Assembly (NCBI RefSeq): GCF_965641715.1
Contig: NZ_OZ282453.1
From: Escherichia coli
GTDB taxonomy: Bacteria; Pseudomonadota; Gammaproteobacteria; Enterobacterales; Enterobacteriaceae
Length of the DNA: 64,000 bases
Strand: one strand, 5' to 3'
Of this stretch, positions 44,501 through 47,500 are shown piece after piece. Each line of letters starts with the position of its first letter. Position 1 is the first letter of the stretch. A program made the position numbers.

Positions 44501-47500
44501 TATCGCCTGCGGTGGTGGCAACCTGCACGCTGGCCTGACTATTGTCGATGGTTAACGTTATCGAACCGGCGTCAGTGATGGTACTGCCGACAATTTGCAC
44601 CACTGACCAGGTATGTTCACCAGCACTTTGCGTGGGTAACGAGACACTCCAGTGACCGTTGTTGTCTACCTGAGTACTGGCAATAGTATTGCCGTTACTG
44701 TCTTTAATCTGAATAGTCGCCCCCGCCTGCCCGCTGCCGCTAAAGGTTGGCGTGGTGTCATCGGTGATGTCATTGGTGGCGAGAATGCCGCGCTGATCGC
44801 CCTGATTATCGATAACTAAAAATGATGGTGTGGCAACACCCGGTTCAGGTACAGGCTCAGCGGGTGGCGTAGGGTTATTAATCACTTCTGTTTTCGAGTC
44901 GCCATCGCCACCGCTTGCCAGCAGTGCACCAAGCGCGCCACCACCTACCGCCGCCCCCGCCAGCCAACCCCACGGGAAAGCGCTGGTCTGAGCAACGGTA
45001 TCAAGAAATGGCGCAATGCTTTCAATCGCAGTGGTCTGGGCAGTCAGTTCTACGGGGGCTAATCCACCCGCAGCAGTATCGGCAAAGGTGATATGGGTTA
45101 GCTGTTGACCATCGGCAAACACCAGTTCCGATTGTTCAGCTGTATTCGCCGCTTGCAGGAAATAACCGTTGCAGCGGATCACCGTGCCGTCCTGCATATA
45201 GATCAGCAGGTCATTTCCTTCACGGACGTAACGCGCAACGGCAGAGGCCTGAGCATGAACCTGCACCACGGAAGGCTCATAAATAACAACCGTGACGTCG
45301 CCAGGATTAATCAGCGTTTGTTTGACGGATGTTTTACGCGAAATAACATCAATAATCAGGCTCATAATGGCATTCCTGATAAATGGCGCACATCCTTAGC
45401 GAGTCCATTTATCTAAATAAGACAAAGGTAATCACTTAACAACGGCCCACTATTAATAATGGCAGGATTATTTCAAGTCGGGTAAGTCGTTGTATAAGCC
45501 CTGTTTAATTCCCGCTAAAGGAATAAGGTTATTCACCGCAGCGGCATAATTTACGGCGGCGACCCAGCCATCATAATTGGCATTTATTTCAGCCGATTGC
45601 GCCTGAAAGACATCTTGCTCGACGGTTAATAGATCATTCAGACTGCGTTTACCCAATTTATATTCATTTTGGTACACATCTCGCGTTTTGTGCGCACTTT
45701 CGGATTGCGCTAACCCAGCTTCTTCACGACCCCGTGCGCCGGTCCAGTTCGCATATGCCACAGACGCTCGTTGCAGCACATCCAGTTTTGCCTGTTCGAC
45801 CTGCGAGGCAGAGATTTTTTGTTGCCCTTCGGCCTGTTGCACCTGGGCAGAAACCGCGCCGCCCTGATACAGCGGCGCGTTAACGTTCAGTTGTAGCTGG
45901 TCATCCCAATACGAGCGGTCGCTGGTCTGGTAGCGCGTTTTACCCCCCTGAATACTGAGCGTTGGCCAGTATTGCGCTTTCGTTTTTTCCACGCCGTACT
46001 GTGCTGACTGGCGTAAGTTTTCTGCCGCCAGCACCAGCGGGATGGACTGGTAATCAATATTCTTCAGCGATACCGGCTGCTCGGCTAATTCAGCAGGTGG
46101 CGCGGCTATCGCCTCCGGCTGTACGCCAGTGAGCACCGCCAGTTGCGCTTTGGCGCTCGCCATCTGCGCCTGATATTGCTCCAGCGTTGAGCGCATTCCG
46201 GCAATACGCGTCTGGGCCTGTAATTCATCCGACGATGAGTTCAGGCCAGCGTTAGCGCGCAATGCCGCCATGTTGTAGACGTTTTCCAGCGAGTGAATAT
46301 TGCGTTGAGCCGCATCGCACAAAGCCTGATAACGACTGACTTCCATGTAGGCAGTCGCCGTTTTCTCTGCAACATCGGTTAAGGTAGCCATCAATTTAAA
46401 GCGGTAGCTGTCACGGGCGGCAGTTTGCAGATTGATATCGTTGTTAGTTTTACCAAAGTCATACACCAGTTGTGTCAGGGTTATGCCATACGAAACGTTG
46501 TTATCAAGCCTGCCGCTGGAGTCCGTTTGTCGGGACGGCCCCGCGTTGCCGGTTAATCCAACGTGCGGATACCAGGCACTTTTGGCTTCATCAATTTGCG
46601 CTTCGCCAATGCCTATCTGCGCCGCCTGTTGAGTGACGTCGGGATTTCGCGCAAAGGCGCGTAATATACTTTCCTGTAAGGATAATTGGGCAACTGGCGT
46701 TACCGCTGGGGCGTTCGCCCATTGTGGCAGCGGTGCAGCAATTGCAGCTTCTCCCATCACCATAAAACTTATTAAAAAAATAAGTCCATTATTTTTACGG
46801 TTTTTAAACTGGAATCGCGCCATAGATAAGTCACTTCCTTCCAGGTCATTATTTTAACTGGTTTTTATAACCAGTCTCATTTTATTAAGAAGGGTAATAA
46901 CTTGTGCATCTCTTTTGTCGAACATTGATATGGGCAAAGAAATGCAGCTAAAAAGCTTATACGTTATTTATTTAGAATACACTACGACTTTTAGATTACC
47001 ATCATACACATTAAGAATAATCCACGGTAATAAGTGATTAGCATCACAGATTTATCGCGTATATATCATTTTTTTGTGACTTATTTATTAAAGGAATAAG
47101 AAAGGTAATTTGAATTAAAGACAAAGGCGCAGTACAGGCAGTACTGCGCGCAGAGAGGTGTTATACGGTTTTATTGCGCTTCATGACCATTGCCACAATA
47201 AGGCTGAGTAAGATTGCACCAATAATCCATATCAACGCACGGCTGCCCTGGGACCACAGGCTGTAGATAAAGCCAACGATCACCAACAACATCACCAACG
47301 TACCAACGATAAGAATCGGCAACGAGGCGTGAATATCATGACGCAGGCGGATCGCCACCACAAACACCGCCAGATAGCAGATCAAAAAGGTGGCGCTGGC
47401 AACGCTGGCGAGTGAGCCTAAATTCAGCGCCGCCGTCATCAGCATAATCAACACCACGACAATAATGTTGCCCCAGGTACTCTGCCGCCACAGGGATTTA

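What the first reader, a model, noticed from the sequence alone, without database searches (positions are those of the whole stretch)
46830..47160. Sharp compositional contrast: AT-rich island leader versus GC-rich adhesin gene
By eye, the 330 bp upstream of the TolC-like gene is very AT-rich with A/T tracts, while the adhesin gene is GC-rich with G/C-rich codons for Gly/Ala/Thr/Val repeats. The autotransporter islet at 17.5-20.8 kb is also AT-rich. This pattern fits horizontally acquired, xenogeneically silenced adhesin loci whose expression needs a specific signal. I have not computed GC percentages.
Basis: seen in the sequence. Interest (0 to 1): 0.4.

Follow-up and report, generated by a model that had tools for sequence, protein, structure and literature searches.

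The report
AT-rich promoter leader of E. coli OI-28
The AT-rich stretch is the already-studied regulatory leader of a known E. coli adhesin-secretion operon (O-island 28), and the compositional contrast is real but typical of this operon family, not evidence of recent foreign DNA.

Summary
The ybaT/TolC-like intergenic region (46824-47160) is 32.9% GC. Its island-specific part is 30.4% GC and contains the most AT-rich 200 bp of the 64-kb window (27.5%). The 20.8-kb adhesin gene is 60.4% GC, against 53.7% for pooled core genes.

The locus is O-island 28 of E. coli O157:H7: tolC28, a giant BapA/SiiE-like adhesin, an ABC transporter and an MFP. A 2025 paper showed that this same ~320-bp leader is the operon's regulatory region and is bound and activated by RstA. 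The published RstA box is present exactly at 47104-47117. A 2009 paper showed 55-fold RpoS dependence.

I add four points:
- There is a conserved CRP-like site at 47033-47048.
- Half of the adhesin's GC excess comes from amino-acid composition and half from C-ending codons.
- The same gradient, from AT-rich leader through intermediate tolC to GC-rich adhesin, recurs in orthologous operons of Enterobacter, Lelliottia, Trabulsiella and, more weakly, Rosenbergiella. Budvicia shows only the AT-rich leader.
- The island lies at the same site in E. whittamii and in Escherichia sp. E1V33. The K-12 "empty site" is a single deletion scar.

H-NS silencing is plausible for the leader only and has not been tested. 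Interest is low.

The parts
46824..47132 (-). Island-specific AT-rich leader, the regulatory region and 5' UTR of the OI-28 operon (30.4% GC).
   Evidence: GC values. Island-free strains align only from 47133 rightwards. This corresponds to the 320-bp tolC28 upstream region studied in PMC12758282. It is 81-82% identical to the leaders of Escherichia sp. E1V33 and E. whittamii, with long invariant blocks.
47127..47149 (-). Intrinsic terminator hairpin of ybaT, GCGCAGTAC-N5-GTACTGCGC, followed by a T-rich tail at 47117-47126. The K-12 deletion endpoint lies inside it.
   Evidence: Terminator scan. The K-12-type junction keeps only 47133 onwards.
47104..47117 (-). Published RstA box TAATTCAAATTACC, at -294 to -281 counted from the A of the tolC28 ATG (the paper gives -294 to -280).
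   Evidence: A single exact match in the window. EMSA, ChIP-qPCR and a box-deletion fragment are reported in PMC12758282. The box is polymorphic within E. coli (TTACC or TTTCC) and only partly conserved in E1V33 and whittamii.
47033..47048 (.). Candidate cAMP-CRP site TGTGA-TGCTAA-TCACT, matching 9 of 10 core positions. This is a prediction and has not been reported.
   Evidence: One of only 2 sites with at most 1 mismatch in the 64 kb. Both half-sites are invariant in four E. coli strains, E1V33 and whittamii, while the spacer differs. No such site occurs in the leaders of other genera, and only 1 occurs in 198 kb of other sequence. CRP is not mentioned in PMC12758282.
46974..47005 (-). Sigma-70 promoter predicted with BPROM in the 2025 paper: -35 ATGATG at 47005-47000 and -10 TATTCT at 46979-46974. 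The transcription start site has not been mapped.
   Evidence: Motifs quoted in PMC12758282 and located on the minus-strand sequence. They lie inside a block of about 60 nt that is almost invariant across Escherichia. A generic consensus scan found only chance-level promoter matches elsewhere in the leader.
46835..46893 (-). Possible 5' UTR structure: CCUUCU pairs with the GGAAGG Shine-Dalgarno sequence around an inner hairpin, ACUGGUU/AACCAGU.
   Evidence: RNA fold of -17.6 kcal/mol, z = -2.47. Changes in the inner stem in E1V33 and whittamii keep G-U pairs. It matters only if transcription starts upstream of 46893.
45468..46823 (-). tolC28, TolC-family outer-membrane channel (451 aa). It is the first gene of the operon and has ordinary composition.
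   Evidence: Pfam OEP, E = 1e-47. RefSeq annotation. GC 51.9%, GC3 54%.
24576..45365 (-). Intact giant type I secretion adhesin of 6929 aa, annotated by PGAP as 'BapA-related adhesin SiiEA'. It corresponds to the split Z0609/Z0615 of O157:H7. GC is 60.4%.
   Evidence: ORF. Pfam finds BapA_N, Big_13, Big_6, FG-GAP and C-terminal RTX repeats. Annotations. Composition.
22410..24572 (-). Type I secretion ABC transporter (hlyB28).
   Evidence: Pfam ABC_membrane and ABC_tran. GC3 is 70.9%, against 59.6% expected from its amino acids.
21238..22413 (-). Type I secretion membrane-fusion protein (hlyD28). Its last ~95-100 bp survive as the scar in K-12-type strains.
   Evidence: Pfam HlyD_3. Scar alignment.
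20834..21241 (-). cueR. Its ATG overlaps the MFP stop codon (ATGA), so it is positioned as the last cistron of the operon.
   Evidence: ORF coordinates, sequence, annotation.
17640..20833 (.). Separate variable AT-rich islet containing a YadA-anchor trimeric autotransporter gene (18368-20107).
   Evidence: Pfam YadA_anchor. GC 44-49%, and the spacer at 18003-18367 is 31% GC. Content varies between strains.

Best explanation
The AT-rich 46824-47132 stretch is the promoter and regulatory leader of the OI-28 operon (tolC28, giant BapA/SiiE-like adhesin, ABC transporter, MFP, with cueR abutting). It starts just after the ybaT terminator.

Shown elsewhere:
- RstA binds a box at the distal edge of the leader and activates the operon, and Ca2+ acts through RstA.
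- Expression depends strongly on RpoS in stationary phase.

Predicted here:
- A conserved CRP-like site is centred at 47040.5. That is about 72-73 bp upstream of the start implied by the published -10, which is the correct helical phase for a class I CRP site.
- A possible anti-Shine-Dalgarno fold lies in the 5' UTR.

Inferred:
- The published promoter would place the RstA box at about -143. That is too far for simple RNA polymerase recruitment. It fits relief of a repressive nucleoprotein complex (H-NS/StpA) on the 343-bp AT tract.

The compositional contrast belongs to this operon family and is not a mark of recent foreign DNA. The leader is kept AT-rich as regulatory DNA, and remains 31-32% GC in three Escherichia lineages despite about 18% sequence divergence. 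Of the adhesin's 6.7-point GC excess, 3.4 points come from a Thr/Ala/Gly/Val/Ser-rich protein and 3.4 points from C-ending synonymous codons. The ABC and MFP genes share that codon bias.

The island is old in Escherichia. Strains that lack it carry one ancient 25.8-kb deletion.
For: Identity and position:
- The locus lies between ybaT and cueR, as in O157:H7. The leader differs from the O157:H7 leader at 3 positions, and the RstA box is exact.

Published function:
- RstA function is shown in PMC12758282 by lacZ fusion, ChIP-qPCR, EMSA with and without the box, and Ca2+/EGTA treatment.
- RpoS dependence is shown in PMC2907692.

Composition:
- Values.
- The GC excess splits into +0.034 from amino acids and +0.034 from synonymous choice.
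- Observed versus expected GC3: adhesin .717/.620, ABC .709/.596, MFP .662/.579, TolC .540/.596.
- Family-wide pattern: leaders are 27-43% GC. In Enterobacter, Lelliottia and Trabulsiella the adhesin 5' region is about 3-8 points above the upstream flank in GC, and its GC3 exceeds tolC GC3 by 7-13 points. Rosenbergiella shows this more weakly and Budvicia is inconsistent.
- Giant repeat adhesin genes, including Z0609/Z0615 and P. putida PP0168, were already listed as regions of atypical oligonucleotide usage (PMC1274298).

Constraint on the leader:
- Invariant blocks and the conserved CRP half-sites.

Ancient residence and deletion:
-.
Against: - No transcription start site has been mapped. 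The published -35/-10 pair has a 20-nt spacer, and generic consensus scans give only chance-level promoter hits. The distances quoted for CRP and RstA are therefore conditional.
- An alternative -10-like element, TGaTATATA at 47068-47060, would place RstA at about -57 as a conventional activator and CRP downstream of the start.
- The RstA box is a poor match to the RstA consensus as I recall it (no site with at most 3 mismatches in the leader), and it is polymorphic.
- The CRP site is a prediction only.
- There are no H-NS data.
- The C-ending codon bias of the adhesin, ABC and MFP genes could still reflect an old transfer from a genome of higher GC.
Confidence: 0.72

Rival explanations
1. OI-28 would be a horizontally acquired island that H-NS coats and silences as foreign DNA. 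The AT-rich leader would be the nucleation site, and a dedicated signal would be needed to counter-silence it.
For: - The leader is the longest and most AT-rich tract in the 64 kb, with undepleted TpA steps.
- The RstA box lies far upstream of the predicted core promoter.
- Strong RpoS dependence is common at H-NS-repressed promoters. That generalisation is from my own knowledge.
- The related type I secretion adhesin island SPI-4 of Salmonella is H-NS-silenced, also from my own knowledge.
- Orthologues lie in different contexts in other genera.
Against: - The 24.3 kb of coding DNA downstream of tolC28 (adhesin, ABC, MFP) is 57-60% GC, above the genome average, so H-NS cannot spread over it.
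- The island is not recent. It lies at the same site in E. whittamii and E1V33 and has diverged about as much as its flanks, and its absence elsewhere is a deletion.
- No tRNA gene was found in the window, and no integrase is apparent.
- The first gene is well expressed in wild-type stationary phase (Z0608; Z0609 only weakly), and in DMEM the island supports adherence.
- Matches to the H-NS high-affinity motif are at chance level.
- I found no H-NS data for the locus.
Confidence: 0.2
2. The contrast is trivial. Any E. coli intergenic promoter region is AT-rich, and any Thr/Ala/Gly-rich repeat protein gene is GC-rich. Nothing specific is encoded by the composition.
For: - Intergenic regions of the window have a median GC of about 41% and go as low as 36% in core DNA.
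- Half of the adhesin's GC excess is due to amino-acid composition.
- Both the amino-acid and the synonymous components fall within the range of core genes.
- A/T-tract density in the leader is unremarkable.
Against: - The leader is 6-8 points below the lowest core spacer and is the extreme of the window.
- It stays at 31-32% GC across lineages that are 18% diverged, and it contains invariant blocks.
- The non-repetitive ABC and MFP genes share the +8 to +11 point GC3 excess, so protein composition is not the whole explanation.
Confidence: 0.08

Closest known systems
O-island 28 (S-loop 42) of E. coli O157:H7: tolC28 (Z0608), rtxA28/rtxB28 (Z0609/Z0615), hlyB28 (Z0634), hlyD28 (Z0635). Described in PMC12758282.
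   Same: - Same chromosomal site between ybaT and cueR, and same gene order.
- The leader differs at 3 positions in about 350 bp, and the RstA box is identical.
   Different: - Here the adhesin is one intact 6929-aa ORF. In O157:H7 it is annotated as interrupted: PGAP marks it as a pseudogene with an internal stop, and the paper treats it as two genes.
- The paper treats the island as acquired. Here the island-free state is shown to be a deletion scar.
- CRP, RpoS and H-NS are not considered in the paper.
Salmonella SPI-4 (siiABCDEF), a type I secretion system with the giant Ig-repeat adhesin SiiE.
   Same: - A type I secretion system (TolC-like, MFP and ABC components) together with a giant non-fimbrial adhesin built of Ig-like repeats.
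- Expression is gated by specific regulators.
- From my own knowledge, H-NS silences SPI-4 and HilA/SprB activate it.
   Different: - The gene order differs, and there are no SiiA/SiiB homologues here.
- From my own knowledge, SPI-4 is AT-rich throughout. Here only the leader is AT-rich and the coding body is 57-60% GC.
- The N-terminus of this adhesin is BapA-like.
BapA (Salmonella) and LapA (Pseudomonas), type I secretion biofilm adhesins.
   Same: - BapA_N prefix domain, Ig-like repeats and C-terminal RTX repeats.
- Giant repeat adhesin genes, including LapA PP0168 and Z0609/Z0615, are known outliers in oligonucleotide composition (PMC1274298).
   Different: - From my own knowledge, the regulators differ: CsgD for bapA, and c-di-GMP with LapD/LapG for LapA. 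Here they are RstA and RpoS.
- No lapD- or lapG-like genes are present in the island.
Counter-silenced H-NS promoters of Enterobacteriaceae, such as PhoP/SlyA-dependent pagC-type promoters.
   Same: - An AT-rich promoter tract.
- A response-regulator site far from the canonical activator position.
- Dependence on stress and stationary-phase signals.
The last two rest on my inference.
   Different: - H-NS binding has not been shown here.
- The regulated genes are GC-rich and have resided in the genus for a long time, so they are not recent xenogenes.

Membership tests
E. coli O-island 28 type I secretion/adhesin island | Located between ybaT and cueR. | tested here: met
   ybaT is at 47161-48453 and cueR at 20834-21241, flanking the cluster.
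E. coli O-island 28 type I secretion/adhesin island | Gene order tolC-like, giant adhesin, ABC, MFP on one strand. | tested here: met
   ORFs. Pfam finds OEP, BapA_N/Big_13/RTX, ABC and HlyD.
E. coli O-island 28 type I secretion/adhesin island | A regulatory leader of about 320 bp carrying the RstA box TAATTCAAATTACC at -294 to -280. | tested here: met
   Exact match at 47104-47117, which is 281-294 nt upstream of the ATG at 46823.
H-NS xenogeneically silenced island | AT content above the genome average across the island. | tested here: not met
   The adhesin, ABC and MFP genes are 60.4, 57.2 and 56.5% GC, against 53.7% for core genes. Only the leader (30-33%) and the 3' end of tolC are AT-rich.
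H-NS xenogeneically silenced island | H-NS occupancy, and derepression in an hns mutant. | not testable with these tools
   I found no H-NS ChIP or hns-mutant data for OI-28 in the searchable literature. The motif scan was uninformative.
H-NS xenogeneically silenced island | Recent horizontal acquisition: a sporadic insertion, mobility genes, and an intact empty site in relatives. | tested here: not met
   No tRNA gene in the window. The island lies at the same site in E. whittamii and E1V33 with flank-like divergence. The 'empty' site keeps the 3' end of the MFP gene and is a single allele found in 4459 genomes.
Class I CRP-dependent promoter | A TGTGA-N6-TCACA site. | tested here: met
   TGTGATGCTAATCACT at 47048-47033 matches 9 of 10 core positions, and the half-sites are conserved.
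Class I CRP-dependent promoter | Site centred near -61.5, -72.5 or -82.5 from a mapped start, and cAMP-CRP dependence. | not testable with these tools
   The transcription start is unmapped. With the published -10 (46979-46974) the centre would fall at about -72.5 to -73.5, which is an inference.
BapA/SiiE-type type I secretion giant adhesin | N-terminal BapA prefix domain, tandem Ig-like domains, C-terminal RTX repeats, and a cognate type I secretion system. | tested here: met
   Pfam: BapA_N 3e-18, Big_13 1e-86, FG-GAP_3 5.5e-19. HemolysinCabind scores 9e-5, just below its curated cut-off of 23 bits at 22.7 bits.

The most novel reading that the evidence does not exclude
The leader could be a counter-silencing switch kept in a long-resident, non-foreign operon. 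In this reading H-NS/StpA occupies the 343-bp AT tract. RstA, bound about 140 bp upstream of the core promoter, relieves that repression. cAMP-CRP at 47033-47048 and sigma-S then drive transcription. cueR is the last cistron of the operon, so the single ancient 25.8-kb deletion carried by about 82% of E. coli would have both removed the adhesin system and rewired the promoter of the copper regulator cueR, using the MFP-gene scar and a truncated ybaT terminator.
Probability: 0.25. Interest if true: 0.35.

Novelty: already known. Interest (0 to 1): 0.2.

Why it matters
OI-28 contributes to early adherence and colonisation by EHEC O157:H7 (PMC12758282). How its promoter integrates signals is therefore of some applied interest.

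The points added here refine a system that has already been described. They do not reveal a new one:
- a candidate CRP input;
- the distal position of the RstA box, which suggests counter-silencing;
- composition that is typical of the operon family, not diagnostic of recent transfer;
- the fact that most E. coli lost the island through one deletion, where the published view is that pathogens gained it;
- cueR abutting the operon.

They also warn against reading a GC contrast alone as evidence of xenogeneic silencing.

Tried and rejected
- **H-NS high-affinity motif** TCGATAAATT, up to 2 mismatches: 61 hits against 45 expected, with one in the leader. Not informative.
- **RstA consensus** as I recall it (TACATNTNGTTACA), up to 3 mismatches: no hit in the leader, and fewer hits than chance in the window.
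- **Rfam at gathering thresholds:** nothing in the leader. The only hits are REP/naRNA4, sroB and others elsewhere in the window.
- **Small ORFs in the leader:** only 21-40 aa frames with TTG or GTG starts and no support.
- **Repeats in the leader:** short two-copy matches at chance level. A 13-nt inverted repeat linking 47076-47088 to the start-codon region is not conserved in E1V33 or whittamii.
- **A/T-tract density as a distinguishing feature:** rejected.
- **Generic sigma-70 scan:** 2 hits against 2.1 expected.
- **Cross-genus alignment of leaders:** not alignable beyond Escherichia.
- **Gene conversion among repeats as the cause of high GC3:** rejected as the sole cause, because the non-repetitive ABC and MFP genes share the excess.
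- **Literature searches for H-NS data on OI-28, Z0608 or ECs054x,** including the supplements of the Sakai H-NS/Pch paper: nothing found.
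Full report
**1. What the window is**

The window is E. coli chromosome from the copA-glsA-ybaT to cueR-ybbJ-qmcA region. Megablast of 45400-49500 hits 5422 of 5426 complete E. coli genomes, and 958 of them cover the whole query.

On the minus strand the genes run in this order:
- ybaT, 47161-48453
- a 337-bp spacer
- a TolC-family gene, 45468-46823
- a 6929-aa ORF, 24576-45365
- an ABC transporter gene, 22410-24572
- an HlyD-type MFP gene, 21238-22413
- cueR, 20834-21241

Pfam confirms OEP, HlyD and ABC domains. For the giant protein it finds a BapA_N prefix domain, many Big_13 and Big_6 Ig-like domains, FG-GAP repeats and a C-terminal RTX repeat. RefSeq annotates the O157:H7 orthologue as "BapA-related adhesin SiiEA" and marks it as interrupted by an internal stop. 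This is O-island 28 (S-loop 42) of O157:H7, genes Z0608, Z0609/Z0615, Z0634 and Z0635.

**2.

Leader:
- GC is 33.2% for 46830-47160, 32.9% for the exact spacer and 30.4% for the island-specific part, 46824-47132.
- The lowest 200-bp GC in the 64 kb lies here (27.5%, 46922-47121).
- Only 0.12% of 309-bp windows are as low.
- The longest tract at or below 35% GC is 46812-47154.
- Core spacers in the window reach only 36-39%.

Genes:
- The adhesin is 60.4% GC, against 53.7% for 28 pooled core genes.
- The TolC-like gene is ordinary (51.9% GC).

One detail is wrong. A/T tracts are not enriched compared with other spacers. TpA steps are undepleted in the leader.

**3. What the AT-rich stretch is**

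Island-free strains such as K-12 and BL21 align to the window only from 47133 rightwards. So 46824-47132 belongs to the island, and 47133-47160 is core DNA.

The core part holds the right-hand end of the ybaT terminator hairpin, which spans 47127-47149 and is followed by a T-rich tail.

A Gut Microbes paper of December 2025 (PMC12758282) studied exactly this ~320-bp region as the regulatory region of tolC28:
- rstA deletion lowers all five OI-28 transcripts 3-5-fold and lowers a tolC28-lacZ fusion.
- RstA is enriched on the region by ChIP-qPCR and shifts it in EMSA.
- A fragment lacking the box TAATTCAAATTACC (-294 to -280) is not bound.
- Ca2+ increases expression in an RstA-dependent way.

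That box occurs once in the window, exactly at 47104-47117 on the minus strand.

The BPROM promoter quoted in the paper maps to 47005-47000 (-35, ATGATG) and 46979-46974 (-10, TATTCT).

An earlier microarray study found Z0608 and Z0609 to be 55-fold and 20-fold RpoS-dependent in stationary phase. The wild-type Z0608 signal was log2 10.8 (PMC2907692). At least the first gene of the operon is therefore expressed under ordinary laboratory conditions.

**4. New details in the leader**

I aligned four E. coli leaders with those of Escherichia sp. E1V33 and E. whittamii. Overall identity to those two lineages is about 81.5%. Two long blocks are nearly invariant:
- 47005-46945, which contains the published -35/-10 pair;
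- 46912-46824, the proximal 5' UTR and Shine-Dalgarno sequence.

A CRP-like site, TGTGA-TGCTAA-TCACT, lies at 47048-47033:
- It is one of only two matches with at most 1 mismatch in the 64 kb.
- Its half-sites are invariant in all six sequences, while the spacer differs between species.
- No such site occurs in the leaders of other genera, and only one occurs in 198 kb of other fetched DNA.
- The 2025 paper does not mention CRP, H-NS or RpoS as regulators.

If the published -10 is used, the CRP site is centred near -72.5 to -73.5, which is class I phasing. The RstA box is then centred near -143. I infer that this distal position fits relief of a repressive complex better than direct recruitment of RNA polymerase. 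This is conditional on an unmapped start site.

An alternative -10-like element, TGaTATATA at 47068-47060, would make RstA a conventional activator at about -57.

The proximal UTR can fold so that CCUUCU pairs with the GGAAGG Shine-Dalgarno sequence (-17.6 kcal/mol, z = -2.47).

Rfam, small-ORF, repeat and tRNA searches found nothing further in the leader.

**5. Why the adhesin is GC-rich**

I recoded the adhesin protein with the codon usage of the 28 core genes. That gives an expected GC of 57.0%. Of the 6.7-point excess, 3.4 points come from amino-acid composition (Thr 14.8%, Ala 13.0%, Val 10.7%, Gly 10.5%, Ser 10.1%) and 3.4 points from synonymous choice.

| Gene | Observed GC3 | GC3 expected from amino acids |
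|---|---|---|
| Adhesin | 71.7% | 62.0% |
| ABC | 70.9% | 59.6% |
| MFP | 66.2% | 57.9% |
| TolC-like | 54.0% | 59.6% |

Core genes span -12.6 to +12.1 points on this measure.

The synonymous bias favours C-ending codons: GGC 0.60 against 0.39 in core genes, AGC 0.62 against 0.30, and GCC 0.38 against 0.27. Adhesin GC3 rises from 0.57 in the first 500 codons to 0.72-0.79 further on.

The difference is moderate, and immediate neighbours also have high GC3 (cueR 67.6%, ybaT 66.6%, ybbJ 68.0%).

A 2005 survey had already listed Z0609/Z0615 with other giant repeat adhesin genes, such as P. putida PP0168, as regions of atypical oligonucleotide usage (PMC1274298).

**6. The contrast recurs across much of the operon family**

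A scan of one genome per species with the TolC-like protein returned 31 loci. In Enterobacter, Lelliottia, Trabulsiella, Budvicia, Rosenbergiella and Pseudocitrobacter the tolC orthologue is preceded by a spacer of about 290-930 bp at 27-43% GC.

In most of these genera (Enterobacter, Lelliottia, Trabulsiella, and to a lesser extent Rosenbergiella) it is followed by an adhesin gene:
- whose 5' region is 3-8 GC points above the upstream flank;
- whose GC2 is 0.45-0.53;
- whose GC3 exceeds that of tolC by 4-15 points.

This holds whether the host flanks are about 43% or about 57% GC. Budvicia keeps the AT-rich leader, but its adhesin gene is not clearly enriched.

The leaders cannot be aligned between genera, and the neighbouring genes differ. 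What is shared is composition and layout, not sequence. The operon has moved between genomic contexts over long evolutionary time.

**7. The island is old in Escherichia, and its absence is a deletion**

In E1V33 and E. whittamii the order copA-glsA-ybaT-leader-tolC-adhesin is collinear with the window. Identities are as follows:

| Segment | Identity to window |
|---|---|
| glsA | 88-90% |
| ybaT | 88-89% |
| tolC | 84-91% |
| adhesin 5' end | 84-85% |

Their leaders are 31-32% GC.

K-12-type strains keep about 95-100 bp of the 3' end of the MFP gene in front of cueR. PGAP annotates it as a pseudogene fragment. It is joined through a few filler bases to position 47133, inside the ybaT terminator.

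A 161-bp probe across that junction is covered at 80% or more in 4459 of 5426 genomes. Together with the 958 island-bearing genomes, this accounts for 5417 of 5426. The polymorphism is therefore essentially one ancient deletion of about 25.8 kb, not repeated acquisition. The 2025 paper discusses acquisition and horizontal spread.

No tRNA gene lies at either border, and no integrase is apparent in the island.

**8. H-NS**

The leader has the composition expected of an H-NS nucleation site, so binding there is plausible. Four points count against the full silencing model or leave it open:
- The motif test is uninformative.
- I found no H-NS ChIP or hns-mutant data for this locus.
- The coding body is unsuitable for spreading because of its GC content.
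- The first gene of the operon is expressed in the wild type.

I therefore rate [quoted passage not shown] as plausible but unproven. I rate "xenogeneic silencing of a recently acquired island" as unlikely.

**9. Verdict**

This is a correct compositional observation on a known and recently characterised island. It is over-read on recent horizontal acquisition and untested on xenogeneic silencing. Interest is low. The modest additions are the CRP-like site, the family-wide architecture, the deletion-scar origin of the K-12 state and the abutting cueR.

Noticed in passing
window 21238-21241, and L002 5901-5998: The cueR start codon overlaps the MFP stop codon (ATGA), so in island-bearing strains cueR is positioned as the last cistron of the type I secretion/adhesin operon. 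In K-12-type strains a scar of about 95-100 bp from the MFP gene sits directly upstream of cueR and may now carry its promoter. The scar is only about 92% identical to the intact MFP 3' end.
   Followed up: partly
window 47127-47149: The K-12-type deletion endpoint at 47133 falls inside the ybaT terminator hairpin and removes most of its left arm. Read-through from ybaT into cueR may therefore differ between island-positive strains and scar strains.
   Followed up: no
window 17640-20833: A second AT-rich islet lies between ybbJ and cueR. It carries a 579-aa YadA-anchor trimeric autotransporter gene (18368-20107) and small ORFs. Its upstream spacer (18003-18367) is 31% GC. The passenger region varies between strains: only 239 genomes cover at least 80% of it, and O157:H7 has a 338-aa version.
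   Followed up: partly
window 46835-46893 (minus strand): The predicted 5' UTR fold pairs CCUUCU with the tolC28 Shine-Dalgarno sequence GGAAGG around an inner hairpin (z = -2.47). Changes in the inner stem in E1V33 and E. whittamii keep G-U pairs.
   Followed up: partly
L008 about 4615-4627, corresponding to window 46126-46197: The tolC orthologue of E. whittamii has a gap of about 70 bp relative to E. coli, and its reading frame ends early. It may be a pseudogene in that genome. Part of the same region is also rearranged in locus L030.
   Followed up: no
window 8846-9070, 52266-52545 and 59602-59679: Clusters of REP-type elements (Rfam naRNA4/CssrE, plus ES036) explain the GC-rich intergenic regions at 52155-52570 and 59568-59696. 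The sRNA sroB is at 53843-53926, and an AgrB match is at 8256-8344.
   Followed up: no
window 24576-45365: Adhesin GC3 rises steadily from 0.57 in the first 500 codons to 0.72-0.79 downstream. Together with the low-GC3 tolC gene this forms a 5'-to-3' compositional gradient along the operon. Only one DNA-level tandem array is detectable (27898-28839, period 318, 71% matches).
   Followed up: partly
L006 1304-3757: In Pseudocitrobacter faecalis the gene upstream of the tolC orthologue is an unrelated 817-aa protein. I did not identify it. It shows that the operon sits in a different context there.
   Followed up: no
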